Shown here one piece after another: positions 385-11,273 of a stretch of 64,000 bases of DNA; the stretch's first letter is position 1, and each line of letters starts with the position of its first letter. Made by a program: the position numbers and the translations under genes. The notes beneath the pieces were generated by a model. It saw nothing but the letters and a program-made list of their open reading frames with translations. It was not told where the DNA came from and did no database searches. The stretch comes from a virus, in IMG/VR virus record IMGVR_UViG_3300029305_002985, positions 68,092 through 132,091 of that record. The stretch is one strand, 5' to 3'.

Positions 385-404
385 ATCGGTATTCGCTCCT
401 TCCT

Positions 405-478
405 TTTTATTACATATATATTATACCATAAAGTTGTGAACACCGTATGAACAAATTGTGAACATTTTGTGAACTTTA
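405..478 (-). promoter_or_regulatory. promoter (TGgTATAAT extended -10) overlapped by four GTTCACAA direct repeats at about 11-bp spacing
   Basis: Minus strand reads aagTTCACAAaatgTTCACAAtttgTTCATAcggtgTTCACAActttatggTATAAT. Repeats start near 434, 446, 457 and 468. Confidence 0.45.
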
Positions 479-481
479 TGG

Positions 482-505
482 GGAGGGGGCTTATAGCCCC
501 CTCAT
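482..505 (-). terminator. GC-rich hairpin downstream of the 507-854 gene
   Basis: gagggggc-ttat-agccccctc inverted repeat immediately after the stop codon (minus strand). No clear U-tract. Confidence 0.35.
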
Positions 506-506
506 A

Positions 507-854
507 TTAGGCGAGGGAGAAAGTGGAAACTTTCTTTTCCACCGACTTGATGACCTCACCGCTTGCGACCATCTTGCCAAGCATAGCGGTCACCTTTTGA
601 ACGGTGATGTCGGGGTAATCTGCGACCAGTGCCTTATGCACCTCGCTTGCGCGCTTGCCACCGTTTGCAAGCACCTCGGAGATTGCGATGAAATACTTTT
701 CATCGGCTTCGGCTTTCTTTGCGTTTGCGCTACCGCGCTTTGCATCTGCCTGTGCGATTTTCTTTTCGCACCACGCGACCACCTCGGCATCGTTCGCCAT
801 AGCGGAGATAATGCGGTTGAGAATGTCTTTGGAAGTAACCTTTTCGTTTGCCAT
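507..854 (-). CDS. hypothetical early protein, 115 aa; paralog of the 1404-1754 gene
   Basis: ORF with RBS GAAAGGAAAGG 9 nt upstream of the ATG. Shares ...DEK(Y/F)F.AI..VLA.G.KRA.EV..AL..D.TIQKVTAML.KMVA..V.K.VEKKVSTF.L with the protein at 1404-1754. Confidence 0.7.
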   Translation of the reverse strand: MANEKVTSKDILNRIISAMANDAEVVAWCEKKIAQADAKRGSANAKKAEADEKYFIAISEVLANGGKRASEVHKALVADYPDITVQKVTAMLGKMVASGEVIKSVEKKVSTFSLA

Positions 855-939
855 AGTGTTGTACCTTTCCTTTCATAGATAGAAGATTGATTTGTGGATT
901 GCGGTTTGGGAGAGCCGTACGCTCTCTCCCTCTCTGCTC

Positions 940-1003
940 TTATATTATACCATACTTTGAGCCGTTTGTCAAGGGGTTTTTGAAAAGTTTTTCAAATTTT
1001 TTT
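940..1003 (-). promoter_or_regulatory. early promoter, P1 type: UP-like palindrome TTGAAAA-N-TTTTCAA, -35 TTGACA, 17-nt spacer, TGgTATAAT
   Basis: Reverse complement reads ccTTGACAaacggctcaaagtatggTATAATataag. The -35 is at 967-972 and the -10 at 944-949. A stem-loop (GGGAGAGAGCGTACGGCTCTCCC) lies in the 5' UTR. Confidence 0.6.
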
Positions 1004-1189
1004 TCGCACCGCCTTGCGCTTGCGCTCTCTGTCTTGGTACATTTATATTATACCACAAACGGACGCGGATTGCAAGAGCAATACTGCACAAAATTTAGGT
1101 TGTTTTGTGGGAATTTTTTGTGCAAAATGCCGAGCGAGGTTTGCGCGGAAAAAGTTAGGTAAGGCTAACACCACGCGCAAATCGGCTCT

Positions 1190-1262
1190 GGAGCGACCGC
1201 TCCAGAGCCGGCAAATAAAAAAGGCGCGAGCCGTCGCTCACGCCTTTCCCGCGCGGTTGTGA
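1190..1262 (-). terminator. tandem rho-independent terminators downstream of the 1404 gene
   Basis: Minus-strand hairpins GCCGGCTCTGGAGCGGTCGCTCCAGAGCCG and GGCGTGAGCGACGGCTCGCGCC, the second followed by TTTTTTATTTGCC. Confidence 0.55.
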
Positions 1263-1403
1263 TGGCGTGATAGCCACCACGATAGACGGAGCAGGGGGTT
1301 TCACCCTCACACTCTCTCCCGGTGGCCGCCGTCGCGGTCGGGGGCGATTTCCTTTTTAATCTATCCGTCTATGTAGAGGGGCTTACGCCCCTCTGTGGGT
1401 GGA

Positions 1404-1754
1404 TTACTCGGCATCCTCACCCTCGCCATCAACCCCAAAGTTGAGGGCGAAAGTGGACACCTTCTTCTCCACGGTCTTGGTTACGCGCTTTGCCGCAACC
1501 ATCTTGGTGAGCATAGCCGTGACCTTCTGAATGGTCAGACCATCCATATCCTTTGCAAGCGCATTGAATACCTCGGTGGCGCGCTTGCCCTTGCCATCCG
1601 CGAGAACATCCGCAATCGCGTCAAAGAACTTCTCGTCCTCTGCGTTCTTCTTGGAGTTGGCGGAAATCGCCTTCTTCTCCAACTTTGCGATGCGCTCCTC
1701 GCAGAACTTGATGAGGTCATCGTGACCGCCGATTTCCTCGAACACGGAAATCAT
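1404..1754 (-). CDS. hypothetical early protein, 116 aa, paralog of 507-854. A probable N-terminal extension runs to the ATG at 1808 through an in-frame TAG at 1775-1773.
   Basis: ORF MISVFEEIGGHDD.... Upstream in frame: ATG(1808) GCT ACT GTT GTA AAG GCA AAG GCA CCC ACT TAG AAG GAG CAG TTC GGC AAG ATG(1754). The ATG at 1808 has the same RBS geometry as the paralog (AAAAGGAAGG + 9 nt). Confidence 0.6.
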   Translation of the reverse strand: MISVFEEIGGHDDLIKFCEERIAKLEKKAISANSKKNAEDEKFFDAIADVLADGKGKRATEVFNALAKDMDGLTIQKVTAMLTKMVAAKRVTKTVEKKVSTFALNFGVDGEGEDAE

Positions 1755-1865
1755 CTTGCCGAACTGCTCCTTCTAAGTGGGTGCCTTTGCCTTTACAACA
1801 GTAGCCATAGTAGTGTACCTTCCTTTTCTTATTTTTTTTATTGTCAGCGGCTCTCGCCTTACTGC

Positions 1866-1935
1866 TCTTATATTATACCACATTCCGTGGGGTTTGTCAA
1901 GAGGTTTTGCGAAAAATTTTTATTTTTTTCGCGCC
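1866..1935 (-). promoter_or_regulatory. early promoter P1 type (TTGACA-17-TGgTATAAT)
   Basis: Reverse complement ccTCTTGACAaaccccacggaatgTGgTATAAT. The -35 is at 1895-1900 and the -10 at 1872-1877. An A/T-rich UP-like segment lies upstream. Confidence 0.6.
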
Positions 1936-1953
1936 CTTTGTGGGGGAGAGGGA

Positions 1954-2721
1954 TTAACCCTCTCCCTTGATGGTGAATTTGATACCGCTATCGTTGGGGA
2001 GTTTGCGCTTGTTGGTATAGGGGAAGATATGCTCCTCGCCATCTGCGGAAACTACCTTAAACTCGCGCATAAGGTTGCGCGGAATGGAGCGATATACCTT
2101 GTAGTCGGTGTTCCACTCTGCGCCATTGATGATACAATAGTGCAGAATATCCAACTCAATCTCGGCATCCGCAAGGGCGGTGTGCGCTTCATCAAACTCT
2201 GCGTTCTGCGAGAGGAAACGATATACACTCTCTGCGGTGGTGGCAAAATTGCCACTTTCGGTGAACAGTTTATGCTTTTCGCAAAACTCTTGGTATGCGG
2301 TTTGGAAAGCGATAAACTTGTGGACATATCCGCGAATATCGTGGATTTTCACATTATCAAGCGGATTTGGGGTATGATGCCACTCGGCATTGAACGCGAA
2401 TACGCGCTTGTCAAAGTCGCTATTGAACGCATAGGCATCAGTAATGCCGAACTGTTCAATATCACTTGCGACCTTTGCCGCTACCCATTCCCATTTATGC
2501 TTGGTCATAAGGCGGTTAGCAAGCATATCCTCATAGCGCGCTCTCTTGTCCGCATAATATGCGGTGGAAAAGAGCATCATATTGTTCCATACATCGGTGA
2601 CGATATAGGAACGCTTTGCGACTATAACCTCTCGCTCGGTGTCAAACACACAGTAGCCGAGGTCATAGCAGAACGGCTTTTCAAGATTAGCCGTTTCGGT
2701 GTCAAAGACCATAATGTTCAT
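1954..2721 (-). CDS. DEDDh-family 3'-5' exonuclease (DnaQ/RNase T-like; comparable to T4 DexA-type phage exonucleases)
   Basis: N-terminal Exo I motif MVFDTETANL (D-x-E), central acidic motifs, and C-terminal Exo III motif HTALADAEIEL (H-x4-D). RBS GAGAGGAAA. 255 aa. Confidence 0.75.
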   Translation of the reverse strand: MNIMVFDTETANLEKPFCYDLGYCVFDTEREVIVAKRSYIVTDVWNNMMLFSTAYYADKRARYEDMLANRLMTKHKWEWVAAKVASDIEQFGITDAYAFNSDFDKRVFAFNAEWHHTPNPLDNVKIHDIRGYVHKFIAFQTAYQEFCEKHKLFTESGNFATTAESVYRFLSQNAEFDEAHTALADAEIELDILHYCIINGAEWNTDYKVYRSIPRNLMREFKVVSADGEEHIFPYTNKRKLPNDSGIKFTIKGEG

Positions 2722-2777
2722 CGGGGGTGTTTTCCTCTCTTTCTACCATAGGGGGTAGCCCTCGCTCCCCACTCGGT

Positions 2778-2850
2778 ACTTATATTATACCACATCTTGT
2801 GGCTTTTGTCAAGGGGTTTTTCAAAAGTTTTTTGAAAAATTTTTTCGAGC
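2778..2850 (-). promoter_or_regulatory. early promoter P1 type (TTGACA-17-TGgTATAAT) with UP-like TTGAAAA/TTTTCAA element
   Basis: -35 at 2807-2812 and -10 at 2784-2789 (reverse complement). Same cassette as at 940-1003. Confidence 0.6.
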
Positions 2851-2905
2851 CTTGCAAGGTGGCTTTTTCAAACGAAGCACGAAGCAACTACCGAAGCCCT
2901 CGCCC

Positions 2906-2990
2906 CTTGACATTTATAATTATACCACAAATGCGGGAAAATTGCAATAGGCAAATTGCACAAAGTTTTGCACAAAAATTTGTGCAAATT
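2906..2990 (-). promoter_or_regulatory. second upstream promoter P2 type (TTGCAA-17-TGgTATAAT) plus TTGCACAAAGTTTT motif and palindrome TTGCACAAAAATTTGTGCAA
   Basis: -10 at 2920-2925 and -35 at 2943-2948 (reverse complement). Motif at 2957-2970, 9-bp-arm palindrome at 2969-2988. Confidence 0.5.
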
Positions 2991-2995
2991 ACCAC

Positions 2996-3062
2996 TTGAC
3001 AGGCAAAACGGCTCGTGGCGCAGGACCACGAGCCGGCAAAAAGAGGGCGATTACTCGCCCTC
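2996..3062 (-). terminator. tandem rho-independent terminators downstream of the 3051 gene
   Basis: Minus strand: GAGGGCG-AGTAAT-CGCCCTC followed by TTTTT, then GGCTCGTGG-TCCTGCGC-CACGAGCC followed by GTTTTGCC. Confidence 0.65.
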
Positions 3063-3272
3063 AATTTCCTTCCAGTACTCCTCTTCCTCTTCGTTGGAGT
3101 TGATGTCAAGATAGACAATGTCGTCTTCTGCCGTAACCTCGCCAACCGTGCGGTAGTAGGCATCAATTTCATCTGTATCATTGTTGGGAACAAGGACAAT
3201 ATTGTTACCTTTTCCTTCTCCCATCAATTTGGTGAAAAACGCGTGCATCTCTTTTACAGTATAAACTTTCAT
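3051..3272 (-). CDS. hypothetical acidic early protein, 73 aa
   Basis: ORF with RBS AAGGAGA. Co-transcribed with the AbrB-like gene upstream, since no promoter lies between them. Confidence 0.55.
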   Translation of the reverse strand: MKVYTVKEMHAFFTKLMGEGKGNNIVLVPNNDTDEIDAYYRTVGEVTAEDDIVYLDINSNEEEEEYWKEIEGE

Positions 3273-3316
3273 TTTTCATTCTCCTTTATGTTTTTATGTA
3301 GAGGGCGTTTCCGCCC

Positions 3317-3790
3317 TCAATCATCCTCGTTGCGGATGGCATACTCTGCCGTGCGCACCATTGCGCGCACAAGTTTACTGTCTGCATCTTTGGGGAGAAC
3401 AAGGTATGCGATGGGTTGACATTGGTCACGGATGGGCACGACATAGTGGTCACCAATCTCCATTGCGCTCGTTGCGCAAGTTTCGAGGTGTTTGGGGAAA
3501 GAAGGGTTGTTTCGTCTGTTGACGAACAACAGTTCATCACTCTCGTTATAGAGAGCCACCGCATCTTCGCCAAACTCCATAGCCGCGCTACCATACAGTG
3601 CTTTGAGAATGGATTTGATGTTCTTTTCCTCGGTCACCATATGCTTCTTGAAGCAGACATACTTGCCATCCTCGCTCATATAGATTTCAAGGGGGTCGCC
3701 CTCGCGGATATGGAAATTTCTGCGGATTTCCTTAGGGATAACCACGCGACCGAGGTCATCAATTCTGCGAACAATTCCAGTTGCTTTCAT
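3317..3790 (-). CDS. AbrB/SpoVT-family transcription regulator (N-terminal swapped-hairpin domain plus C-terminal extension)
   Basis: N-terminus MKATGIVRRIDDLGRVVIPKEIRRNFHIREGDPLEIY is the canonical AbrB/MazE/SpoVT DNA-binding motif. 157 aa. Confidence 0.75.
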   Translation of the reverse strand: MKATGIVRRIDDLGRVVIPKEIRRNFHIREGDPLEIYMSEDGKYVCFKKHMVTEEKNIKSILKALYGSAAMEFGEDAVALYNESDELLFVNRRNNPSFPKHLETCATSAMEIGDHYVVPIRDQCQPIAYLVLPKDADSKLVRAMVRTAEYAIRNEDD

Positions 3791-3829
3791 AGTAAATACC
3801 TTCCTTTATGTTGTTATGTATGAGGGGCA

Positions 3830-4291
3830 TTAAAGCCCCTCTTTGATAAGGCGGAACAGGTCAAACAGACCATCGGCATCAACCGCGATACCGCCATTGT
3901 TCACCCACTCTCTGCGGTTGCGCTCCTCATCATCGACAAGGAAGCCGAAGCCCTCTGCCACGGTATATTTGGGAGTGCCGTATGCGAGAATGTGGATTTC
4001 GTCAAACTCAACCGAGGGCAGGTGCTTTGCCAACCACTTGCGCTTGACCTCTGCGACCTCTGCGTTATAGGCATCGGTTGCGTTCTTGGCAAGCCACGAG
4101 AGGACACAGACCTTAACCCCTTGCTTGCGGAGAGCGTTGATATAGCGCGCCATCGTAGCCATATGCACCATCGGCTTGGCTTGCGCGTAGGGGGTTGCGA
4201 TGTGGTTTTCAAGCATTTCGCGCCAACCCTCAACCGCGTAGAGGTCAGCGAAAGTTCCGTCCATATCAAGGTAAATGCGGATTTCGTTCAT
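3830..4291 (-). CDS. HAD-superfamily hydrolase, 5'(3')-deoxyribonucleotidase-like
   Basis: Motif I IYLDMDGTFADL (DxDGT) at the N-terminus. Size and pattern resemble NT5C-type nucleotidases. 153 aa. Confidence 0.6.
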   Translation of the reverse strand: MNEIRIYLDMDGTFADLYAVEGWREMLENHIATPYAQAKPMVHMATMARYINALRKQGVKVCVLSWLAKNATDAYNAEVAEVKRKWLAKHLPSVEFDEIHILAYGTPKYTVAEGFGFLVDDEERNRREWVNNGGIAVDADGLFDLFRLIKEGL

Positions 4292-4315
4292 AGTATGTTC
4301 TCCTTTTCCTTTGGT

Positions 4316-4390
4316 ACTTATATTATACCATACTTTTGGTGGTTTGTCAAGAGGGTTTTCAAAAAAAGTTGCAATCTTTTTTCAAGCAAG
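4316..4390 (-). promoter_or_regulatory. early promoter P1 type (TTGACA-17-TGgTATAAT)
   Basis: -35 at 4345-4350 and -10 at 4322-4327 (reverse complement). Confidence 0.6.
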
Positions 4391-4450
4391 GGTCTGTTTC
4401 TGTTCACTACCCTTCGCGCGTTTGGGTTTCTGTGTCCTTCCTCTCCCCTC

Positions 4451-4520
4451 TTGACATACTAATTATACCACATTCACGGGATTTTGTCAACAGTCAAGTT
4501 GCACAAAGTTTCGCGCGGAA
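4451..4520 (-). promoter_or_regulatory. upstream P2-type promoter plus GTTGCACAAAGTTT motif
   Basis: Reverse complement TTGACA...TGgTATAAT followed by TAGTATGTCAAG. Motif at 4498-4513. Confidence 0.45.
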
Positions 4521-4540
4521 AATGACCGAGGTTTGGTGAT

Positions 4541-4598
4541 AATGCACAAAACGGCACGCGGCGAGCGCCCGCGTGCCGAGCGAAAGAAAGGGCGCGGA
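4541..4598 (-). terminator. tandem terminators downstream of the 4599 gene
   Basis: Minus strand GGACGCGGAGTAATCCGCGCCC followed by TTTCTTTC, then GGCACGCGGGCGCTCGCCGCGTGCC followed by GTTTTGTGC. Confidence 0.55.
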
Positions 4599-4826
4599 TT
4601 ACTCCGCGTCCTCTTCTTCTACCTGTATTACTGCTTCTGTGGAAAAATCGCTCTCCACGGAATTGTGATACATATTTAACTTGCCCTCATTGTAGAGCAT
4701 CATCACTGCATCTTTAAGGGAGCATTCTTCTTCTTCTGCGCACTCTTGCACGAGTTGGCTTTGTTCCTCATCAAGATAACAAGTGTAAGTTACTGTTGCT
4801 TCAACAGTTACCGCAAATCTTGCCAT
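4599..4826 (-). CDS. hypothetical acidic early protein, 75 aa
   Basis: ORF with RBS AAAGGAGAAAAAAC. Preceded by the conserved hairpin-ACATAAAAACATAAAGGAG leader. Confidence 0.55.
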   Translation of the reverse strand: MARFAVTVEATVTYTCYLDEEQSQLVQECAEEEECSLKDAVMMLYNEGKLNMYHNSVESDFSTEAVIQVEEEDAE

Positions 4827-4878
4827 TGTTTTTTCTCCTTTATGTTTTTATGTATCGGCGTGGATTGCTCCGCGCCGA

Positions 4879-5214
4879 TTAAAGAGCCATCATAAAATTC
4901 CACCACCAAACCATCCAGCCGATGAACAAAAGAAAACCTATAATAAGGAAAACACCTCGGCATAAATTTCTTTGGTTCTTTTTTATCTTATATTGCTTCA
5001 TCTTTTGCTCATAATCTTTAAGAGCCGCTTCCCACAATTCTTTGCTTTCATAGTGTCGTGGATAGGGATAGCTGGGTCTAGAAAAGTCTGCGGCTAAATA
5101 TTCCCAACACCAACCAGTTACGACAACAAATATAATTGTGCAAAATAACATCAAGATTGCCATAATTTTTACCCCCAAATCATAATGATAAGATTGTATG
5201 CGTTCATCACCCAC
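4879..5214 (-). CDS. small membrane protein (2 TM). An alternative start at 5163 (MAILMLF...) is coupled to the upstream stop.
   Basis: Hydrophobic segments ILMLFCTIIFVVVTGW and VFLIIGFLLFIGWMVWWW. TAAAAATTATG overlap with the upstream gene. Confidence 0.5.
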   Translation of the reverse strand: MGDERIQSYHYDLGVKIMAILMLFCTIIFVVVTGWCWEYLAADFSRPSYPYPRHYESKELWEAALKDYEQKMKQYKIKKNQRNLCRGVFLIIGFLLFIGWMVWWWNFMMAL

Positions 5215-5420
5215 AGTGCCACATTAAGCACCACCAAGTTGATGCGCCTTGCTTGCCAACAAAATGCCGTTGCGATGGTCGCGCCGATGAAGAACGGAAT
5301 TGTCGCGTTCACGCCACAGATAACCAACACCGCGCAAAGCACATAGATAAGTGCGGTGATGTCGGTCACATCAAAGCGGTATGCGCGGTTGAGTTCAAAG
5401 TAGTTCTTAAATGCACGCAT
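5169..5420 (-). CDS. small membrane protein, 83 aa, 2-3 TM
   Basis: Segments ALIYVLCAVLVICGV and FFIGATIATAFCW. RBS GAGGTG. Its start overlaps the end of the 5407 gene. Confidence 0.55.
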   Translation of the reverse strand: MRAFKNYFELNRAYRFDVTDITALIYVLCAVLVICGVNATIPFFIGATIATAFCWQARRINLVVLNVALWVMNAYNLIIMIWG

Positions 5421-5589
5421 CTTCTAACACCTCGTTTCCATCGCTTTCAAAGATTGCGGCGGTTGTGAAGCCCCAACCGCAACCGCATCTGTAATAACTT
5501 ATTCTCTTGATAGTCCAACCATTTTCTTCATATTCGGTTTCAAAGAGTTTAGGTTGCGCGGTGCTACCGCAGTTAGGACACTTTACCAT
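5407..5589 (-). CDS. zinc-ribbon protein, 60 aa
   Basis: CPNCG ... CGCGWG four-Cys arrangement. Confidence 0.5.
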   Translation of the reverse strand: MVKCPNCGSTAQPKLFETEYEENGWTIKRISYYRCGCGWGFTTAAIFESDGNEVLEDACI

Positions 5590-5590
5590 T

Positions 5591-5776
5591 TTATAACTCT
5601 CCTAACTTGATAACAGAAATAATCACAAAGTCTGTTACCATATTCTCTTTGCTATTATAGTGGTCGGGCAAAGCGGCAAGCCACTCCGCAAGGTCGCGTT
5701 CGTGCCAGATAAAATTATTGCAATCGACCTCAAAGCGGTCAAGACTTGCGGAATAAAGTGTTGCAAGATAGGTCAT
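5591..5776 (-). CDS. hypothetical protein, 61 aa (start MTYLATLYS)
   Basis: The ORF-track upstream extension overlaps the promoter -10 (ATGTGGTATAAT), so the true start is the ATG at 5776, after RBS GAGAGGAGAACATAAAA. Confidence 0.5.
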   Translation of the reverse strand: MTYLATLYSASLDRFEVDCNNFIWHERDLAEWLAALPDHYNSKENMVTDFVIISVIKLGEL

Positions 5777-5802
5777 TTTTATGTTCTCCTCTCTCTTGGT
5801 AT

Positions 5803-5862
5803 TATTATTATACCACATTTGATTGAGTTTGTCAAGGGGTTTTATAAATTTTTTTGGAAGGT
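5803..5862 (-). promoter_or_regulatory. early promoter P1 type (TTGACA-17-TGgTATAAT) for the 5776-to-4879 operon
   Basis: -35 at 5830-5835 and -10 at 5807-5812 (reverse complement). Confidence 0.6.
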
Positions 5863-5896
5863 CTTATCTCCTAGAGCGTACCACGCACTTCCTCCC

Positions 5897-5965
5897 CTTG
5901 ACAATAATATTATATCACATTTGCAGGAAATAGTCAATAGTCAAAATCACCAAAGTTTCGCTCGC
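5897..5965 (-). promoter_or_regulatory. upstream P2-type promoter plus motif variant TCACCAAAGTTT
   Basis: Same cassette family as 2906-2990. CTTGACAATAATATTATATCAC. Confidence 0.4.
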
Positions 5966-5995
5966 AAAAATGGCGGCAACTGGTTAAATTGCACA

Positions 5996-6030
5996 AAACG
6001 GAGCGCGCCGACCCTGCGCGCTCCGCTCGG
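5996..6030 (-). terminator. rho-independent terminator downstream of the 6145 gene
   Basis: Minus strand GGAGCGCGCAGGGTCGGCGCGCTCC followed by GTTTTGTGCAA. Confidence 0.55.
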
Positions 6031-6144
6031 AACTTTAGGCAAAAATAAAAAAGCCTAGACACGAGAAATTCGGTCTAGAAATTGTGGAAGAGGTCTACTT
6101 CGCGGAAAACCGACGCTCGCACGATCGCTTGCGCCGTCCAGCGA

Positions 6145-6444
6145 TTACTGGAAGTGTTTAATCACATCTTGTGCATTGTATTCATTTTCGTCTTTCTCCA
6201 AGATAATAATTGTTCTTTCAATTTCGGCACAGTTGCCTAAATTTTGGATGGTTGAAATAACTTTCGAAATCTCTTCCGCACAATCATTTTTTGTCCCGTC
6301 AGAATGGAAGAGTAGCCGCGCGGACTCTTTGCAAAATAACGCGTGAACCGCGAAATCCGTGGCGGCAACTGCCTCCCACTCAAGAGGGACAAGAGAAGAC
6401 TCAAAAGGTGTTAGCACAAGAGCGTGGATTAAATGATACTCCAT
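6145..6444 (-). CDS. hypothetical early protein, 99 aa
   Basis: ORF with RBS AAAAGGAGG. Promoter TTGACA-17-TATAAT directly upstream at 6450-6508. Confidence 0.6.
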   Translation of the reverse strand: MEYHLIHALVLTPFESSLVPLEWEAVAATDFAVHALFCKESARLLFHSDGTKNDCAEEISKVISTIQNLGNCAEIERTIIILEKDENEYNAQDVIKHFQ

Positions 6445-6449
6445 CGCTT

Positions 6450-6508
6450 TGACCTCCTTTTATCTCTTTGTATTATTATTATAATATAAATTTTTCAAAA
6501 TGTCAAAT
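6450..6508 (-). promoter_or_regulatory. promoter TTGACA-17-TATAAT
   Basis: Reverse complement atTTGACAttttgaaaaatttatatTATAATaataatacaaagagataaaaggagg. Confidence 0.6.
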
Positions 6509-6509
6509 G

Positions 6510-6549
6510 CGGCAGACCTAGGTTTTTCTTCCTTGACCTAGGTCTGCCG
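6510..6549 (-). terminator. 14-bp perfect-stem hairpin (terminator for the 6683-6557 operon)
   Basis: gcggcagacctagg-N14-cctaggtctgccgc. On the minus strand it is followed by ATTTGACATTTTG. Confidence 0.55.
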
Positions 6550-6556
6550 CACTTTC

Positions 6557-6661
6557 AAAATTCATCGTAGTGTTCAGCCGCATCTTTCTCATCCTTTGGG
6601 ATAGCGCCCCAAAAGATGCCAAGCACCGCCGCAAAAATAAAGATTACCGCGATTTCCATAG
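6557..6661 (-). CDS. 34-aa hydrophobic membrane peptide
   Basis: MEIAVIFIFAAVLGIFWGAIPKDEKDAAEHYDEF with RBS GGAGAAAACT. Below the ORF-track size cutoff. Confidence 0.4.
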
Positions 6662-6682
6662 TTTTCTCCTTTTGAAGGGCGA

Positions 6683-7189
6683 TTACTCGCCCTTCTGCAA
6701 TTTAAGATATTCTTTTACCATTTCGGCAACATCTACCGAACTACCGCGCGTTTGTGCCATTCTGATTTTTTCTTCAAAGGGGTGCGCCTTGCGCCATTCA
6801 AGTGCAATTTGCTCTTGTTCAAGATTGTAAGCAATACATTGTTCGTATTCTTCTTCAAAGTTGAGTTCACGGAAGCGGTCTGTCAAGGTGTCATTTTTGG
6901 TTTCACAAGTGACAATGTTGATGCTTGCCCACACCATTATCACAAAGCAAGCGACCGCGCCAACCGCGAAGCGCCAATCCCAATAGGTGTCTGCCAAACA
7001 AGCGAAAGTGAGGGTTGCGATGAACAAAGGCAACCAAAGGTACAAGCAAAAGTGTTGAAGCCACTCGTTGCGGTTAATGGCTTTTTCAGTCTGCTGGTCA
7101 ACCTCTTTTGCAAAAGCCTTTTCCTCATTGTCAAAGCCATTGGTGTTGGGGTTAAAGGTCTTGTAGGTGAAGCAACGAGAGAGTGTCAT
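6683..7189 (-). CDS. membrane protein, 168 aa, 2 TM
   Basis: Segments LYLWLPLFIATLTFACL and AVGAVACFVIMVWASINIV. Confidence 0.6.
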   Translation of the reverse strand: MTLSRCFTYKTFNPNTNGFDNEEKAFAKEVDQQTEKAINRNEWLQHFCLYLWLPLFIATLTFACLADTYWDWRFAVGAVACFVIMVWASINIVTCETKNDTLTDRFRELNFEEEYEQCIAYNLEQEQIALEWRKAHPFEEKIRMAQTRGSSVDVAEMVKEYLKLQKGE

Positions 7190-7262
7190 TGTTCTGTTCT
7201 CCTTTTGATGTAGTGTTCAAGAAGGGCTCTGTATCTGTTGCTCCGTCACTGGCGGAATGTTT

Positions 7263-7360
7263 GTGTCATCCCCTCTTGACACTTATATTATATCATAAAT
7301 GCAGGATTTCGTCAATAGGCAAGTTGCACAAACTTTTGGCGCGGAAATTGTGCAAGGTGC
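7263..7360 (-). promoter_or_regulatory. P2-type promoter (TTGACG-17-TGaTATAAT) with upstream GTTGCACAAACTTTTGG motif and inverted partner ATTGTGCAAGG
   Basis: Reverse complement cctaTTGACGaaatcctgcatttatgaTATAATataagtgtcaag. Motif at 7324-7340. Confidence 0.5.
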
Positions 7361-7376
7361 TAGGCTACAGTAAAAT

Positions 7377-7430
7377 CGCGCCGTGGCAAACGGTCACGGC
7401 GCGGCGAGAGTTTCCTCTCAACCGCGCCGC
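7377..7430 (-). terminator. tandem hairpins downstream of the 7435 gene
   Basis: gcgccgtg-gcaaacggt-cacggcgc and gcggcg...cgccgc. On the minus strand they are followed by GATTTTACTG. Confidence 0.45.
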
Positions 7431-7434
7431 GCGC

Positions 7435-7746
7435 TTAATTCATTTTGAAGATGGGGTCAATGTCAATCGGCACAGGGCAGTTCTCTCCATAGCACTCAAT
7501 GGTGATGGAGTAGCGCTTCGTGCGCCAAAATTCGCGGTTCCACGGCTTGTAGTAGACAACCATAGAGATTTTGTGCTTGCTTCGGTTGTGGTCGATGGGA
7601 CAGACTTTTTCAGCAAAACTGCACACCTGCTCGTTTGCGCCCTTGCGCTTTTTGAGTATTTCGATGGCTTTAGCTCGTGCCGTGGTGAAATCGGTGAAGG
7701 CGCGCTTTTCGTGATGGTAGTTGACCATAAATACAGACATTTTCAT
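7435..7746 (-). CDS. hypothetical protein, 103 aa, third gene of the MazF-like operon
   Basis: ORF 17 nt downstream of the MazF-like gene, with RBS AAAAGGAGAACATAACA. Confidence 0.55.
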   Translation of the reverse strand: MKMSVFMVNYHHEKRAFTDFTTARAKAIEILKKRKGANEQVCSFAEKVCPIDHNRSKHKISMVVYYKPWNREFWRTKRYSITIECYGENCPVPIDIDPIFKMN

Positions 7747-7762
7747 TGTTATGTTCTCCTTT

Positions 7763-8110
7763 TCAAAATAGATTGAGTTGAATTTTGAGCGCTTTGCTTA
7801 CTCTTGCCATTTCCTCGGCGGTGGCTTCGCCCATATACTTGGACAGTCGGCACTTGTCAATGGTGCGGACTTGCTCACAGAGGATAGTGCCTTTGATGGC
7901 GCGTCCCTCAATGGGATAGAGGGTTGCGTGGGTGGGAATAGGTTTCTTGACTTGGGAGGTTATGGAGCAAACCGTGACCGTGGTGCTTCGCGCGTTGTTA
8001 ATGTCATTTGACACAATCAATACAGGGCGCAAACCGCCTTGCTCGCTACCCCTTGCAGGGGAGAGGTCAGCGTAGAAAATCTGACCTCTCTTGATAGGGT
8101 TATTCATCAT
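7763..8110 (-). CDS. PemK/MazF-family endoribonuclease toxin homolog, about 115 aa
   Basis: MMNNPIKRGQIFYADLSPARGSEQGGLRPVLIVSNDINNARSTTVTVCSITS...ATLYPIEGRAIKGTILCEQVRTIDKCRL matches the MazF/PemK/Kid fold motifs. Start taken as the ATG at 8110; the longer ORF-track extension is unlikely. Confidence 0.7.
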   Translation of the reverse strand: MMNNPIKRGQIFYADLSPARGSEQGGLRPVLIVSNDINNARSTTVTVCSITSQVKKPIPTHATLYPIEGRAIKGTILCEQVRTIDKCRLSKYMGEATAEEMARVSKALKIQLNLF

Positions 8111-8321
8111 AGTCAAACCCCTCAACCACCTTGCGCTCGGTATGCGCCTCACAGTGGTACATAACCTCACCCGTCCAACGATTGACCACATCGCACACAT
8201 CGGCGTGTCCGCAATCCACACGGATATAGCCGTATGCTTTTGCATCGTCAAGTTCCTCAAAGTCCGCCTTGTGCTTGCCATCAAGCAGTACCATAAGGTC
8301 GCAGGTTTCAATGTTCATCAT
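8100..8321 (-). CDS. Cys/His-rich 73-aa protein overlapping the MazF-like start by 11 nt; candidate non-canonical antitoxin
   Basis: Overlap geometry typical of antitoxin-toxin pairs. Motif DCGHADVCDV...YHCEAH. No MazE/AbrB-like fold is recognisable. Confidence 0.5.
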   Translation of the reverse strand: MMNIETCDLMVLLDGKHKADFEELDDAKAYGYIRVDCGHADVCDVVNRWTGEVMYHCEAHTERKVVEGFDYDE

Positions 8322-8364
8322 AATATGTTCTCCTTTTCTTGTCGGGGTCTTACCCCTTTGACAC

Positions 8365-8440
8365 TTATATTATACCACATTTGTGGCAGTTTGTCAAGGG
8401 GTTTTTCAAACTTTCTTTGAAAAATTTTTTATCAACAGTG
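8365..8440 (-). promoter_or_regulatory. early promoter P1 type (TTGACA-17-TGgTATAAT) with UP-like palindrome
   Basis: -35 at 8392-8397 and -10 at 8369-8374 (reverse complement). Confidence 0.6.
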
Positions 8441-8496
8441 AGTGGGGTTTGTTCCATTACCTTGCAAGTACCCCATATTCTTTTACTTCCTGTCCC

Positions 8497-8580
8497 CTTG
8501 ACACTTATATTATATCACATTTTCGGGATAAATGCAATAGGCAGAATAGACAAAGTTTCGCACAAGTTTTTGTGCAAAAT
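8497..8580 (-). promoter_or_regulatory. upstream P2-type promoter plus GACAAAGTTTCG motif and palindrome GCACAAGTTTTTGTGC
   Basis: CTTGACACTTATATTATATCAC. Palindrome at 8559-8576. Confidence 0.45.
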
Positions 8581-8594
8581 GCTAGCCCACCCAC

Positions 8595-8648
8595 AAAACG
8601 GCTCGGCGCGACCCACGCCGAGCCGCTGAACAAAGAAAGGTTGGGCTT
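8595..8648 (-). terminator. tandem rho-independent terminators downstream of the 8647 gene
   Basis: Minus strand GGTTGGGCATAAGCCCAACC followed by TTTCTTTGTT, then GGCTCGGCGTGGGTCGCGCCGAGCC followed by GTTTTGTG. Confidence 0.6.
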
Positions 8649-8925
8649 ATGCCCAACCCCTCTCTTTTTTAATTTGTTCGTAGCGCTCTGCCTTTTCGCG
8701 CTCGATTTTTTCTTTATCATACACGCGACACTTGATGCCCGTGTAGCCATACTTTTTGAGGTCTGCGCCGCTCCAATAGCGCTTTGCGCATATCTTCTTG
8801 ACGCCTTCCATTTGGTAGTGGCTCTTGTTCTCACAGTATGCCGCTATGCTCGGCACTTCAATGATTGCGCTGACCGCGCGATAGCCTTTGTCGCTTACGA
8901 GAGTGACCTGAATTTGTTTGCTCAT
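8647..8925 (-). CDS. hypothetical basic protein, 92 aa
   Basis: ORF in an ATGA-overlapped operon with the 8922-9116 gene. Confidence 0.55.
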   Translation of the reverse strand: MSKQIQVTLVSDKGYRAVSAIIEVPSIAAYCENKSHYQMEGVKKICAKRYWSGADLKKYGYTGIKCRVYDKEKIEREKAERYEQIKKERGWA

Positions 8926-9116
8926 TTGTTCTTACCTCTCTTTCTCTTTTTGTATGCCTTATAGATGGCACGACCGATGGGGATTGCAAGCATTGGGGAG
9001 AAGATTGCGCAGACCGCAATGGTGAGTTTTTCATCCCACGCATATTGGTCATCAATCAAAATGCAAATCCAAGTGTTAAGGAGTATCCAACCGAGAATAA
9101 TTGCAAGTGCTATCAT
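8922..9116 (-). CDS. small membrane protein, 64 aa, 2 TM
   Basis: Segments IALAIILGWILLNTWICILI and AVCAIFSPMLAIPIG, with a basic tail. Confidence 0.55.
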   Translation of the reverse strand: MIALAIILGWILLNTWICILIDDQYAWDEKLTIAVCAIFSPMLAIPIGRAIYKAYKKRKRGKNK

Positions 9117-9130
9117 CTTATGTACCTCTC

Positions 9131-9200
9131 TTTCTGTACTTTTATTATATCATATTTGCTTGCTCTTATCAATAGGCATTATGCACAAAGTTTTGGGGCG
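9131..9200 (-). promoter_or_regulatory. promoter TTGATA-17-TGaTATAAT plus TTATGCACAAAGTTTTGGGG motif
   Basis: Reverse complement cctaTTGATAagagcaagcaaatatgaTATAATaaaagtacag. Confidence 0.5.
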
Positions 9201-9207
9201 GGACTTG

Positions 9208-9516
9208 TCAACAATAGACAAGTCCCATATCGCGCCAGCGCAACACGCTGATTTGATTGCACGCGCGCCCGACTTCCAGCGCTTCGCGCTTCGTTGCTAC
9301 GCGGTGGCTTTTGTCGATATAGTAAACACCTTCGCTGAACCAAACACCGCAGTTGCCGCTATATGCCTTTACTGCATTGATGGCTTCGCGTGCGGTGCGG
9401 CACTCGATGCCCTCGGTGGCTACTTGGTAGCCTGTCTTATGGGTGATGCACTTGCCGCCTTTAAGCGTCAAGCCGTCATTGTCACGCAGTTTGAGAATGG
9501 TGCGAATGTTAATCAT
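9208..9516 (-). CDS. hypothetical protein, 102 aa (start MINIRTILKL)
   Basis: ATG at 9516 preceded by GGTTTACAGTT. The longer ORF-track version runs into the upstream promoter. Confidence 0.5.
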   Translation of the reverse strand: MINIRTILKLRDNDGLTLKGGKCITHKTGYQVATEGIECRTAREAINAVKAYSGNCGVWFSEGVYYIDKSHRVATKREALEVGRACNQISVLRWRDMGLVYC

Positions 9517-9559
9517 AACTGTAAACCTCTTGTATGTATTCAGTAGGGGTTGTACTTCC

Positions 9560-9626
9560 CCCTTCTGTACCTTAATTATACCACACTTTGCACCTTTTGT
9601 CAATAGACAAGTTGCACAAAGTTGAG
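9560..9626 (-). promoter_or_regulatory. promoter TTGACA-17-TGgTATAAT plus GTTGCACAAAGTT motif
   Basis: Reverse complement tctaTTGACAaaaggtgcaaagtgTGgTATAATtaagg. Confidence 0.55.
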
Positions 9627-9642
9627 GTTGGGGTTTTGGTTA

Positions 9643-9810
9643 TTATCCCCAAACCTCTGCTTCTGCTTGCGCGGCAGTGGTGTAAACAGTGGTGGCAAGC
9701 ACGCGCCCGTTGTTTGCTTGTGCGAACTCTTGTGCCGCGGCTTCAGTGGTGAACATAGCAAGAAGGTCAGCCTCAAACTCGGTGTTTTCCCATACTGCGT
9801 AGATAGTCAT
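9643..9810 (-). CDS. hypothetical 55-aa protein
   Basis: MTIYAVWENTEFEADLLAMFTTEAAAQEFAQANNGRVLATTVYTTAAQAEAEVWG with RBS GAGAGG. Below the ORF-track cutoff. Confidence 0.45.
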   Translation of the reverse strand: MTIYAVWENTEFEADLLAMFTTEAAAQEFAQANNGRVLATTVYTTAAQAEAEVWG

Positions 9811-9845
9811 TTTTTGTACCTCTCATTTATGTATTTGGAAGGTCT

Positions 9846-9900
9846 TTCCCCTTCCTTCTGTAATAATTATACTACTTTTTGCCTCATTTGTCAAGCCTTT
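9846..9900 (-). promoter_or_regulatory. promoter TTGACA-17-TATAAT
   Basis: Reverse complement ggcTTGACAaatgaggcaaaaagtagTATAATtattacagaaggaagg. Confidence 0.55.
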
Positions 9901-10018
9901 TTCAGGATTTTTTCTTCGTCATTTTGCACAAAATTTCGCGCGATTTTTATTTGATAGTTGTGCATTCTGCCCAACATAGGGCCCGCGCGGCCGCACACGA
10001 AAGCACAAGGCACTGTGC

Positions 10019-10336
10019 TTAATCAGCACAGTACCCTCTGCGATAGTTATTATTTATTGCGGTGAAGAGGAAGTGCGGCAGCCGCTCAATGCGAAAGTGT
10101 CTCTTCACTTGCCCCACAGTAGGACAGTACATAGTGATGATTTCCTCTTGTTGATTGCGGATAATCATCACACCAGTGGAAGTGAGATAGAGAGTGACAG
10201 CCTCGCGCCATTCTCTTCTATCCTCTTCTTTGATAGTCATCACTGTTCTACCAAAGCCAACCTCTGTGGCAATTCTTGCATACCTGTCAAGCCTGTCTTG
10301 CTCCATGTGTTTTGTAAGAGTTACTCTCATCATCAT
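10019..10336 (-). CDS. hypothetical protein, about 105 aa (start MMMRVTL)
   Basis: ATG at 10336 lies 5 nt after RBS GAGGTGA. It is co-transcribed with the 10347-10508 gene (10-nt gap). Confidence 0.5.
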   Translation of the reverse strand: MMMRVTLTKHMEQDRLDRYARIATEVGFGRTVMTIKEEDRREWREAVTLYLTSTGVMIIRNQQEEIITMYCPTVGQVKRHFRIERLPHFLFTAINNNYRRGYCAD

Positions 10337-10346
10337 GGCGCTCACC

Positions 10347-10508
10347 TCACGCGTTCAGCGCCTTAAGAATTTCTCTGCGCTCTGCTTCAAGTTCGCGGCG
10401 TCTGTTCCAGTTCTCGTTCCACTTGTTGTAAGCATCGCACATCTCGATTGCCCACAGTTCGTTCTCGATTGCTTCAAGTCTTGCTTCCATCTTTGCTCTG
10501 TCCATCAT
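10347..10508 (-). CDS. 53-aa coiled-coil-like protein
   Basis: MMDRAKMEARLEAIENELWAIEMCDAYNKWNENWNRRRELEAERREILKALNA with RBS AAAAGAGGTAAAG. Confidence 0.45.
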   Translation of the reverse strand: MMDRAKMEARLEAIENELWAIEMCDAYNKWNENWNRRRELEAERREILKALNA

Positions 10509-10555
10509 TGTTCTTTACCTCTTTTTATGTATTTGGAAGGGGTCTCTCTCCCTCT

Positions 10556-10645
10556 TTCCATAATTATTATACCACATTGGGTGGCTCTTGTCAAGTGGCA
10601 AGATGCACAAACTTTTCATTGTTTGTTCGTGCATCTTGCACAAGG
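10556..10645 (-). promoter_or_regulatory. promoter TTGACA-17-TGgTATAAT plus imperfect inverted pair of the GCACAAAC motif
   Basis: Reverse complement ccacTTGACAagagccacccaatgTGgTATAAT. ATGCACAAAC...GTTCGTGCAT at 10604-10640. Confidence 0.5.
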
Positions 10646-10661
10646 TTTATTAATCCTCGTA

Positions 10662-10787
10662 CTTGTAAAGGAATGCGCCGTGCTTGCGCGTTTCCACTTG
10701 CATCTCTTGCTTGCTCATACCCATACAACACACTTTGTGTCCATCCCCAAACACGAACCAGTACCACTTCTTTGCCATTTTAATTTA
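10662..10787 (-). CDS. 41-aa peptide
   Basis: MAKKWYWFVFGDGHKVCCMGMSKQEMQVETRKHGAFLYKYED with RBS GAGAGG. Confidence 0.35.
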
Positions 10788-10814
10788 CCTCTCTTGTATG
10801 TATTTTTGAGGTTG

Positions 10815-10870
10815 GGCTCTTGCCCTTCCTTCTGTAATTATTATACCATAAAAGCAGGTGTTTGTCAATA
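10815..10870 (-). promoter_or_regulatory. promoter TTGACA-17-TGgTATAAT
   Basis: Reverse complement cctaTTGACAaacacctgcttttatggTATAATaattacagaagg. Confidence 0.55.
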
Positions 10871-10899
10871 GGTTTTTTGAAATATTTTTATTGTTTACA

Positions 10900-10985
10900 A
10901 TTTGTTCACAATTTCAGGATTAACATAAAGTTTACAAATTATTAACAATTCGTTCACAAATTATTTACAAATTGTTTACAATTTA
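10900..10985. repeat. array of seven 11-bp-periodic direct repeats GTT(T/C/A)ACAA(A/T)TT; iteron- or operator-like
   Basis: TTTACAA/TTCACAA/TTAACAA units start at 10904, 10915, 10931, 10942, 10954, 10965 and 10976. Same core as the array at 430-478 but in opposite orientation. Confidence 0.6.
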
Positions 10986-11260: not shown

Positions 11261-11273
11261 TCGGTCGTTAAGG

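What the first reader, a model, noticed from the sequence alone, without database searches (positions are those of the whole stretch)
430..10985. Two arrays of 11-bp-periodic GTT(C/T)ACAA direct repeats in opposite orientation, near each end of the early region
Four copies at 434-475 overlap the promoter of the 1-384 gene. Seven copies (TTTACAA/TTCACAA/TTAACAA) lie at 10904-10982, ending at a terminator and the boundary with the recoded half. The 11-bp phasing places the sites on one face of the helix, as in iterons or cooperative repressor operators. The arrays could be replication-origin iterons. They could also be binding sites for a lysis-lysogeny or early-late switch regulator, with autoregulation of the 1-384 gene suggested by the array overlapping its promoter.
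Basis: seen in the sequence. Interest (0 to 1): 0.6.

Follow-up and report, generated by a model that had tools for sequence, protein, structure and literature searches.

The report
Pho-box-like repeat arrays at phage promoters
Two clusters of an 8-base motif repeated every 11 bases sit at two early promoters of a gut phage and look like docking sites for a host phosphate-starvation regulator, not like a replication origin.

Summary
Array 1 (434-474, minus strand) has four boxes. Array 2 (10893-10981, plus strand) has eight, not seven. All boxes are GTT(C/T/A)ACAA-like with an 11-bp period. No shuffle of the window gives three phased boxes, and no other such site exists in the 64 kb.

Both arrays are conserved in close relatives, and the box cores vary less than the spacers. 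Array 1 occupies -60 to -22 on the coding strand of a promoter that keeps an extended -10 (TGgTATAAT) but has no -35. At least 15 sibling early promoters have a perfect TTGACA. Array 2 lies at -60 to -148, inverted, upstream of the first consensus early promoter.

Motif, period and box number (4 and 8) match the Firmicutes PHO box: four TT(A/T/C)ACA repeats with 11-bp periodicity. Array 1's geometry matches it too. The same arrays lie directly upstream of PstS-family genes in a gut Clostridia MAG and two Acholeplasmatales MAGs, and at sigma-70 promoters of unrelated phages.

Best reading: binding sites for a host PhoP-like OmpR/PhoB-family response regulator. It would activate the -35-less promoter and modulate, probably repress, the main early promoter. 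The binder is not shown. The iteron/origin reading finds no support, and autoregulation by the 1-384 product is unsupported.

The parts
434..474 (-). Array 1: four 11-bp-phased boxes. On the minus strand it reads GTTCACAAaatGTTCACAAtttGTTCATACggtGTTCACAA. The TTCACA cores lie at about -60/-55, -49/-44, -38/-33 (TTCATA) and -27/-22 from the inferred start site.
   Evidence: Conserved in L329-L336.
420..428 (-). Extended -10 element TGgTATAAT of the promoter of the 1-384 gene. There is no -35 hexamer: the expected position reads ATACGG.
   Evidence: family D12. Compared with the sibling promoters.
1..384 (-). 5' part (127 of about 139-140 codons) of the first gene driven by the array-1 promoter. 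In relatives it is followed by two small zinc-ribbon-like genes and a terminator.
483..503 (.). GC-rich hairpin (GAGGGGGC-ttata-GCCCCCTC) between the stop of gene 507-854 and array 1. It marks the upstream edge of the promoter region.
   Evidence: I24. Conserved.
10893..10911 (+). Array 2, promoter-proximal pair: GTTTACAAtttGTTCACAA. It lies at about -60 to -78 from the inferred start of the first early promoter, with the boxes on the template strand.
   Evidence: Conserved in L337-L340 and L342.
10919..10981 (+). Array 2, distal block of six boxes at exact 11-bp spacing (ATTAACAT, GTTTACAA, ATTAACAA, GTTCACAA, ATTTACAA, GTTTACAA). A weak 22-bp super-period is present. The block lies at about -86 to -148.
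10840..10868 (-). First (most upstream) early promoter: TTGACA, 17 nt, TGgTATAAT, 12 of 12 consensus matches. It drives the leftward early operon that starts with a 42-codon gene at 10651-10779.
10990..11018 (.). Hairpin terminator abutting array 2. On the minus strand it is followed by TTTTTAAATT. It ends leftward transcription coming from the lipase-like gene and the non-coding region.
   Evidence: Conserved.

Best explanation
The two arrays are clusters of binding sites for one transcription regulator that binds head-to-tail direct repeats on one face of the helix. The regulator is most likely a host response regulator of the OmpR/PhoB family with PhoP-like (phosphate-starvation) specificity. 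At array 1, four boxes take the place of the -35 element on the coding strand of a promoter that keeps only an extended -10. A bound tetramer would recruit RNA polymerase, so the 139-aa gene and the small genes behind it would be switched on when the regulator is active. At array 2, eight boxes in the inverse orientation lie upstream of the perfect-consensus first early promoter. Occupancy there would modulate the main early operon, most plausibly damping it. Shown here: the anatomy, its conservation, the constraint on box cores, and the occurrence of the same architecture at PstS-family genes and at promoters of unrelated phages. Inferred: the identity of the binder, the sign of the effect at each promoter, and the link to phosphate.
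For: (1) Eleven of the 12 boxes fit TT(A/T/C)ACA, one is TTCATA, and the period is 11 bp. [quoted passage not shown] Here the numbers are 4 and 8. (2) Promoter anatomy: at least 15 early promoters in 1-10900 are TTGACA-17-TGnTATAAT. The array-1 promoter has the same -10 but no -35, and the boxes span -60 to -22 on the coding strand. (3) In 120 bacterial loci that carry three phased TTYACAA boxes, the only three PstS-family ORFs (PBP_like_2) lie 60-80 bp downstream of the array in the same orientation. These are a gut Clostridia MAG (L328) and two Acholeplasmatales MAGs (L303, L317). In L328 the last box ends 7-8 nt before TATAAT, as in array 1. (4) Unrelated phages carry the same boxes at sigma-70 promoters. 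L110 has six boxes, 8 nt and TATAAT, without a -35. L126, L014 and L117 have three boxes abutting TTGACA-17-TATAAT. This argues for a factor shared by hosts. (5) Conservation: array 1 is kept in relatives whose gene product is 80-98% identical, and array 2 in relatives with 66-91% identical lipase. Core hexamers vary in 2 of 72 columns and spacers in 13 of 73 (Fisher p=0.005). (6) No OmpR-type, Rex, initiator or ParB domain was found in 34 window proteins, which is compatible with a host-encoded binder. (7) Precedent: cyanophage genes, including non-metabolic ones, are controlled by host PhoBR through Pho boxes (PMC10976474). OmpR/PhoB regulators act as tandem dimers, tetramers or hexamers and as dual activator/repressors (PMC11825685).
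Against: No binding or expression data exist. The host is unknown, so its PhoPR system and its own Pho boxes could not be examined. Array 2 does not have the activated-promoter geometry: it is inverted and upstream of an intact -35. Some relatives carry about 30 boxes (L036), far more than known Pho promoters. The genes behind array 1 have no evident link to phosphate. The half-site is also that of the Rex operator TTGTGAA-N4-TTCACAA (PMC2883068), and WalR/ResD-type regulators are recalled to have similar hexamers. Most family members lack arrays, including the closest by terminase. The cyanophage study itself warns that Pho-box prediction in phage genomes is unreliable. About 30 early proteins of unknown function could include a phage-encoded binder.
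Confidence: 0.5

Rival explanations
1. A phage-encoded early protein binds both arrays and acts as a temporal switch in the manner of phi29 p4. It would activate the -35-less array-1 promoter and lock or repress the consensus first early promoter. This possibly brackets and shuts down the 10-kb early region.
For: The arrays sit near the two ends of the early region and point outwards. A similar pair about 8.8 kb apart is present in one relative (L070: 24-52 and about 8861-8930). One promoter lacks a -35 and the other is perfect consensus, the situation in which p4 activates A3 and represses A2c (as cited in PMC11825685). Many early proteins have no assignable function. The large arrays in L036 suit an abundant phage protein.
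Against: The same boxes occur at promoters of phages with no detectable protein similarity and upstream of bacterial PstS-family genes. The only DNA-binding-like early proteins are the AbrB/MazE-type 3317-3790 and the weak winged-helix paralogues 507-854 and 1404-1754. These are also present in relatives without arrays. The 1-384 family shows no recognisable DNA-binding fold.
Confidence: 0.25
2. The arrays are iterons of a replication origin, with or without a distant enhancer as in P4 ori/crr. They would be bound by a phage initiator encoded outside the window.
For: There are multiple AT-rich direct repeats with a weak 22-bp super-period. The cumulative GC-skew minimum is at 11-12 kb, next to array 2. 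Relatives have convergent arrays (L036, L045, L128). Relatives also have palindromes built from the same half-site near the direct arrays. Direct repeats plus inverted half-sites is the classic pattern of iteron initiators (from memory). The P4 type I iteron TGTTCACC is recalled to resemble the box.
Against: The skew minimum coincides with the switch of coding strand. There is no initiator, helicase-loader or DnaA-box cluster nearby. Array 1 is placed to the base pair as a -35 substitute, and that placement is conserved. Arrays are absent in many relatives. Identical arrays occur at pstS promoters and at ordinary phage promoters.
Confidence: 0.1
3. The boxes are half-sites of the redox repressor Rex. 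The arrays would recruit or titrate host Rex.
For: The Rex operator is TTGTGAA-W4-TTCACAA, which has the same 7-mer and the same 11-bp centre-to-centre spacing (PMC2883068). Nine perfect Rex-type palindromes occur in 1.4 Mb of family loci, some next to direct arrays. Examples are TTGTTAAAAATTTAACAA in L066/L111 and TTGTGAAATTTTTCACAA in L036.
Against: The window has no Rex-type palindrome. Rex is a symmetric dimer that needs inverted half-sites, whereas all boxes here are direct. The variable third base (C/T/A) fits the PHO-box degeneracy. PstS-family genes, not fermentation genes, follow such direct arrays in bacteria.
Confidence: 0.05
4. The arrays are not protein-specific sites. They would be phased A/T tracts giving curved upstream DNA, or a packaging or partition site.
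For: The spacers are A/T tracts phased at 11 bp. Array 2 lies upstream of a strong promoter and 3.6 kb from the terminase gene.
Against: The conserved part is the non-A-tract core TTNACA, while the spacers drift. Array 1 replaces a -35. No ParA/ParB or small-terminase neighbour was found.
Confidence: 0.05

Closest known systems
Firmicutes PHO box (PhoP~P core binding region of Bacillus subtilis Pho-regulon promoters)
   Same: Hexamer TT(A/T/C)ACA, 11-bp periodicity, direct repeats and an even number of boxes (4 and 8). In array 1 the boxes lie on the coding strand from about -60 to -22 in place of a -35. The same arrays precede PstS-family genes in Firmicutes MAGs.
   Different: It is located in a phage early region, and the downstream genes are unrelated to phosphate. 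The boxes have conserved flanks (G before, A after). Array 2 is inverted and upstream of an intact consensus promoter. Binding by PhoP has not been tested.
Host PhoBR control of cyanophage genes through Pho boxes (P-SSM2 pstS; S-PM2d genes)
   Same: A lytic phage places host response-regulator boxes at its own promoters, so that phage genes respond to the host's phosphate status. Regulated genes include hypothetical and replication genes.
   Different: The box consensus differs (cyanobacterial PyTTAAPyPyT/A). The host phylum and phage lineage differ: here a TAG-recoded phage with Firmicutes-type promoters. No phosphate-acquisition gene is involved here.
phi29 protein p4 switch (activation of the -35-less A3 promoter, repression of consensus A2c)
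   Same: One factor bound upstream could have opposite effects on a promoter that lacks a -35 and on one with a strong -35. That is exactly the contrast between the array-1 and array-2 promoters.
   Different: p4 is phage-encoded and binds inverted repeats as a dimer or tetramer. No p4-like protein was found here.
Rex operator (ROP) TTGTGAA-N4-TTCACAA
   Same: Identical 7-bp half-site and identical 11-bp centre spacing. True palindromic versions occur in relatives of this phage.
   Different: The Rex site is an inverted repeat bound by a symmetric dimer. The window's arrays are strictly direct repeats of 4 and 8 units.
Iterons of theta replicons and P4 ori/crr; 11-bp iterons of R1 parC
   Same: Tandem direct repeats in helical phase, two separated clusters, and (for parC) repeats flanking a promoter.
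   Different: No initiator or partition gene lies nearby, and there are no DnaA boxes or a defined unwinding element. The unit is 11 bp rather than 17-22 bp. The arrays are dispensable in many relatives, and identical arrays occur at ordinary promoters elsewhere.

Membership tests
PHO box / OmpR-PhoB-family response-regulator site | Direct repeats of a conserved hexamer TT(A/T/C)ACA or close variant | tested here: met
   Eleven of 12 boxes match exactly and one is TTCATA. Consensus as cited in PMC11870197.
PHO box / OmpR-PhoB-family response-regulator site | 11-bp periodicity (6 conserved plus about 5 variable bases), placing the sites on one helix face | tested here: met
   All spacings are 11 bp except one 15-bp step inside array 2. 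Spacers vary while cores do not.
PHO box / OmpR-PhoB-family response-regulator site | Even number of boxes, typically four (two to eight functional) | tested here: met
   Array 1 has four boxes. Array 2 has eight (2+6) (PMC11870197).
PHO box / OmpR-PhoB-family response-regulator site | For activated promoters: boxes on the coding strand at about -20 to -60, substituting for the -35. This position is recalled from the B. subtilis literature and was not re-read here. | tested here: met
   Met for array 1 only: cores at -60 to -22, no -35, extended -10 kept. The same geometry is seen at a Clostridia pstS promoter (L328) and in phage L110. Array 2 does not meet this feature: it is inverted, at -60 to -148, upstream of an intact -35.
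PHO box / OmpR-PhoB-family response-regulator site | The same box precedes genuine Pho-regulon genes in the host lineage | tested here: inconclusive
   PstS-family genes follow such arrays in one Clostridia and two Acholeplasmatales MAGs. The phage's own host is unknown.
PHO box / OmpR-PhoB-family response-regulator site | Bound by phosphorylated PhoP, with transcription responding to phosphate limitation | not testable with these tools
   Needs gel shift or footprinting and reporter or RNA-seq experiments.
Replication-origin iterons | Adjacent to or inside an initiator gene, or bound by a cognate initiator | tested here: not met
   No initiator-like Pfam domain in 34 window proteins, including all early ones. 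The rest of the genome lies outside the window.
Replication-origin iterons | Associated DnaA boxes or an AT-rich unwinding element, and a strand-compositional switch not explained by transcription | tested here: not met
   DnaA boxes number 18 against 17 expected, with none clustered. The skew minimum coincides with the coding-strand switch.
Replication-origin iterons | Conserved at the corresponding place in related replicons | tested here: inconclusive
   Present in the close clade and some distant relatives. Absent from many others (L341).
Rex operator | 18-bp inverted repeat TTGTGAA-N4-TTCACAA | tested here: not met
   No palindrome with two or fewer genuine mismatches exists in the window, and the arrays are direct repeats. 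Palindromes exist only in relatives.
Autoregulatory operator of the 1-384 product (ribbon-helix-helix or similar) | The gene product has a recognisable DNA-binding fold and co-occurs with the array | tested here: not met
   No Pfam or PHROG hit. The AlphaFold model (pLDDT 75) has no PDB match with E below 1. Homologues at 43-58% identity have array-free promoters.

The most novel reading that the evidence does not exclude
The arrays form a nutrient-gated early switch that is widespread in gut Firmicutes phages. Active host PhoP (or a phage mimic) would bind outward-facing arrays at both ends of the early region. It would silence the consensus early promoter and turn on a -35-less promoter, coupling infection progress to host phosphate status. 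That progress includes the move towards the sigma-factor-driven, TAG-recoded late genes. In relatives with about 30 boxes the arrays would also act as a sink that titrates the regulator away from the host Pho regulon.
Probability: 0.15. Interest if true: 0.75.

Novelty: new member of a known kind. Interest (0 to 1): 0.5.

Why it matters
If the boxes are bound by a host PhoP-like regulator, this recoded gut phage and several unrelated gut phages read the host's phosphate status at their early promoters. That behaviour has so far been documented mainly for marine cyanophages. It would give a concrete, testable handle on how infection programmes of uncultured Firmicutes phages respond to nutrient state. 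Testing needs only a 40-bp promoter and one purified regulator. The box also provides a search pattern for finding such promoters in metagenomic phage genomes. Finally, the result removes a false lead: these repeats should not be annotated as an origin of replication.

Tried and rejected
- **Known phages:** megablast of 1-12000 against deposited phages gave no match.
- **RNA genes:** there are no tRNAs and no Rfam family in the window.
- **More distant homologues of the 1-384 gene:** at 43-58% identity there is no array, only ordinary promoters. Closer relatives then showed full conservation.
- **Closest terminase relatives (L129-L144):** they have no 11-bp-periodic arrays at my threshold.
- **DnaA-box idea:** the unit tTGTTCACA resembles TTATCCACA in 7 of 9 positions, but I rejected it. 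The conserved core is TTNACAA and DnaA boxes are not enriched.
- **Rex idea:** rejected for this window because it has no palindromes.
- **LexA, Spo0A and LytTR-type sites:** considered from memory and dismissed on motif or spacing.
- **Ribbon-helix-helix guess for the 1-384 product:** not borne out by structure search.
- **Winged-helix paralogue 507-854:** no PDB sequence match and only a sub-threshold MCM_C hit.
- **A rightward Pho-type promoter out of array 2:** no -10 element lies at the required distance.
- **Eder et al. 1999:** an attempt to read it directly failed because the paper is not held. The -20 to -60 coding-strand rule therefore rests on memory plus the secondary citation.


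Full report
**What is in the sequence**

Array 1 lies at 434-474. On the minus strand it reads GTTCACAA-aat-GTTCACAA-ttt-GTTCATAC-ggt-GTTCACAA, with starts exactly 11 bp apart. There is a pair at 10893 and 10904. After a 15-bp step there are six boxes at 10919, 10930, 10941, 10952, 10963 and 10974.

Eight of the ten exact GTTYACAA matches in the 64 kb are in the arrays. An 11-bp self-similarity scan flags only these two places. A chain of six exact TT[ACT]ACA at 11-bp spacing is observed, whereas none of 500 shuffles reaches three. Even sequence simulated with the local AT-rich composition never reaches four. A weight matrix built from the 12 units finds no other two-unit site in the window. 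The motif is therefore not AT-rich background.

**Setting**

Positions 1-10900 form an early region of about 25 small genes, all on the minus strand. It is driven by at least 15 near-identical promoters of the form TTGACA-17-TGnTATAAT. Identifiable products are:
- an exonuclease-like protein;
- an AbrB/MazE-type protein;
- a nucleotidase-like protein;
- a MazF-like toxin.

From 12185 rightwards the genes are on the plus strand and use TAG as a sense codon. These include a sigma-factor-like protein, the large terminase, the portal protein and very large structural proteins.

The cumulative GC-skew minimum at 11-12 kb coincides with this change of coding strand. It therefore says nothing independent about an origin.

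**Position relative to promoters**

The 1-384 gene has the family's extended -10 (TGgTATAAT, 428-420) but no -35. The four boxes occupy about -60 to -22 on the coding strand.

Array 2 is upstream of the first and perfectly consensus early promoter (-35 at 10868-10863, -10 at 10845-10840). It spans about -60 to -148 with the boxes on the template strand, and it abuts a terminator hairpin at 10990-11018.

**Conservation**

The 1-384 product belongs to a 139-140-aa family with no annotation.
- In contigs that encode 80-98% identical proteins, array 1 is present with the same four boxes and the same distance to the -10.
- In contigs with a 66-91% identical lipase-like neighbour, array 2 is present with all eight boxes, including the 15-bp step. 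One relative at 70% identity (L341) lacks it.
- Across these sequences the core hexamers vary in 2 of 72 columns and the spacers in 13 of 73 (Fisher p=0.005).
- More distant homologues of the 1-384 gene (43-58% identity) have ordinary TTGACA promoters instead.
- Most of 80 loci recovered with the terminase lack arrays.
- Several distant relatives have degenerate or much larger arrays at the early/late junction, some convergent. L036 has about 30 boxes.

The arrays are thus a conserved but clade-specific addition, not a universal feature of the phage family.

**What the boxes resemble**

[quoted passage not shown] Streptomyces PhoP binds 11-nt direct repeat units cooperatively on one face of the helix (PMC2275107). 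The present boxes fit that hexamer in 11 of 12 cases, have the same period, and number four and eight.

From memory of the B. subtilis literature, which I could not re-read, activated Pho promoters carry the boxes on the coding strand from about -20 to -60 in place of a -35. That is the anatomy of array 1.

**An independent test in bacterial genomes**

The only three PstS-family ORFs in those loci lie immediately downstream of the array in the same orientation. One is in a human-gut Clostridia MAG and two are in Acholeplasmatales MAGs.

In the Clostridia locus there are six phased boxes, and the last box ends 7-8 nt before TATAAT, as in array 1. Since PstS genes make up well under 0.1% of genes, this is a strong enrichment.

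**Other phages**

The same viral scan found the boxes at promoters of phages with no detectable protein similarity to this one.
- L110 has six boxes, then 8 nt, then TATAAT, with no -35.
- L126, L014 and L117 have three boxes abutting TTGACA-17-TATAAT.
- L052 and L087 have six boxes in a divergent intergenic region.

Recurrence in unrelated phages and at bacterial pstS promoters points to a factor supplied by the hosts rather than by this phage.

**Phage-encoded candidates**

Pfam scans of 34 window proteins, including all early ones, show no OmpR-type, Rex, initiator or ParB domain. The 1-384 family gives an AlphaFold model of moderate confidence (pLDDT 75) with no PDB fold match below E=1. 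The winged-helix-like paralogues 507-854 and 1404-1754 are also present in relatives without arrays.

Autoregulation by the 1-384 product is therefore unsupported. A phage-encoded binder among the many unannotated early proteins cannot be excluded.

**Mechanism proposed**

A PhoP-like response regulator would bind the four boxes of array 1 as tandem dimers and recruit RNA polymerase to a promoter that lacks a -35. OmpR/PhoB regulators are known to activate as tandem dimers, tetramers or hexamers, and to repress from upstream sites (PMC11825685). In relatives the transcription unit behind array 1 is the 139-aa gene plus two small zinc-ribbon-like genes, followed by a terminator.

At array 2 the same factor, bound upstream of a perfect promoter in the inverse orientation, would most plausibly damp early transcription. 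The phi29 p4 case is the closest mechanistic analogy: it activates a -35-less promoter and represses a consensus one. The direction of the effect at array 2 is inference only.

Cyanophages provide the precedent for phage promoters read by host PhoBR, including promoters of non-metabolic genes. The same study cautions that predicted Pho boxes need experimental confirmation (PMC10976474).

**Rivals**

- **Origin iterons.** This finds no positive support. There is no initiator and no DnaA-box cluster, the skew is confounded, and the arrays are dispensable in relatives. It conflicts with the exact promoter placement of array 1.
- **Rex.** It shares the half-site and the spacing (PMC2883068), and perfect Rex-type palindromes are enriched in relatives. 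The window has none, and its arrays are direct repeats that a symmetric dimer should not bind.
- **Curved-DNA or packaging readings.** These do not explain why the non-A-tract core is the conserved part.

**Verdict**

The feature is real and conserved. It is best filed as a Pho-box-type array of response-regulator sites at two phage early promoters. That makes it a new member of a known kind of regulation, found in a TAG-recoded phage with Firmicutes-type promoters.

I put about 0.8 on [quoted passage not shown]. I put about 0.5 on "the regulator is a host PhoP-like OmpR/PhoB-family protein".

Noticed in passing
window 900-10900 (e.g. 944-972, 1872-1900, 2784-2812, 4322-4350, 4462-4490, 5807-5835, 8369-8397, 9575-9603, 10566-10594): At least 15 near-perfect TTGACA-17-TGnTATAAT promoters drive the minus-strand early genes. 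They fall into two classes by upstream element. One has GGGGTTTTTGAAAAGTTTTTCAAA-like A/T blocks. The other has a conserved GGCAAGTTGCACAAAGTTT motif (11 copies), sometimes as a palindrome (2966-2988).
   Followed up: partly
window 11021-11230: A non-coding element of about 200 nt lies between two terminators. Its sequence is conserved in relatives that differ elsewhere (L002, L130, L337-L342), including ones without arrays. It has no Rfam match, no tRNA and no convincing ORF. The fold z-score is -4, but that stretch includes the two terminator hairpins.
   Followed up: partly
window 12185-61163: The late genes use TAG as a sense codon: 6 in the sigma-like gene, 42 in a 2487-codon ORF at 28882-36345, and 34 in a 1791-codon ORF at 36454-41829. 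No suppressor tRNA is found anywhere in the 64 kb. The early region and the lipase-like gene 11274-12026 have no in-frame TAG.
   Followed up: partly
L066 9873, 10135, 10156; L111 7183, 7445, 7466; L036 2927 and 5640; L139 4020: Relatives carry perfect Rex-type palindromes (TTGTTAAAAATTTAACAA, TTGTGAAATTTTTCACAA) in the long non-coding early/late junction. There are nine in 1.4 Mb, against about 0-3 for other spacings. Convergent pairs with a 7-bp spacer are also frequent (10). This suggests host redox-regulator sites in this phage family.
   Followed up: partly
window 507-854 and 1404-1754; L005 4249-5089 and 5427-6420: There is a tandem duplication of a gene pair: a roughly 115-aa protein with a winged-helix-like C-terminus followed by a roughly 139-aa protein. 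In the window the second copy of the 139-aa partner seems to be missing, because 855-1400 has two promoters and no ORF.
   Followed up: no
window 7763-8095 and 3317-3790: A MazF/PemK-type toxin gene and an AbrB/MazE-type gene both lie in the early region, but 4 kb apart rather than as an adjacent toxin-antitoxin pair. A 73-codon ORF (8100-8321) directly upstream of the toxin gene may be the real partner.
   Followed up: no
L220 and L286 (one Lachnospiraceae MAG); L235 ('Candidatus Enterocola' MAG): In a Lachnospiraceae MAG, three phased TTCACAA boxes are enclosed by an inverted repeat (GGGGTCAGACCCC ... GGTCTGACCCC) at two separate loci, like a small repeated element. L235 is clearly a contig of a relative of this phage (portal and terminase at 52-59% identity) binned into a bacterial MAG. 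It carries a convergent array.
   Followed up: no
L334 10917-11794 (downstream of the array-1 operon in a close relative): An ORF-free stretch of about 880 bp follows the terminator of the array-1 operon. It holds repeated TTTGTGCA motifs and several long GC-rich inverted repeats. The corresponding region of this phage lies just outside the window.
   Followed up: no
L036 2990-3010, 5585-5605, 6990-7015; L066 9640-9980: A recurring CTTTA-N6-TAAAG-like motif (e.g. cactttaccatactaaag) precedes the palindromes and arrays in relatives' junction regions. It may be a promoter for the phage sigma factor. It was not looked for in the window.
   Followed up: no
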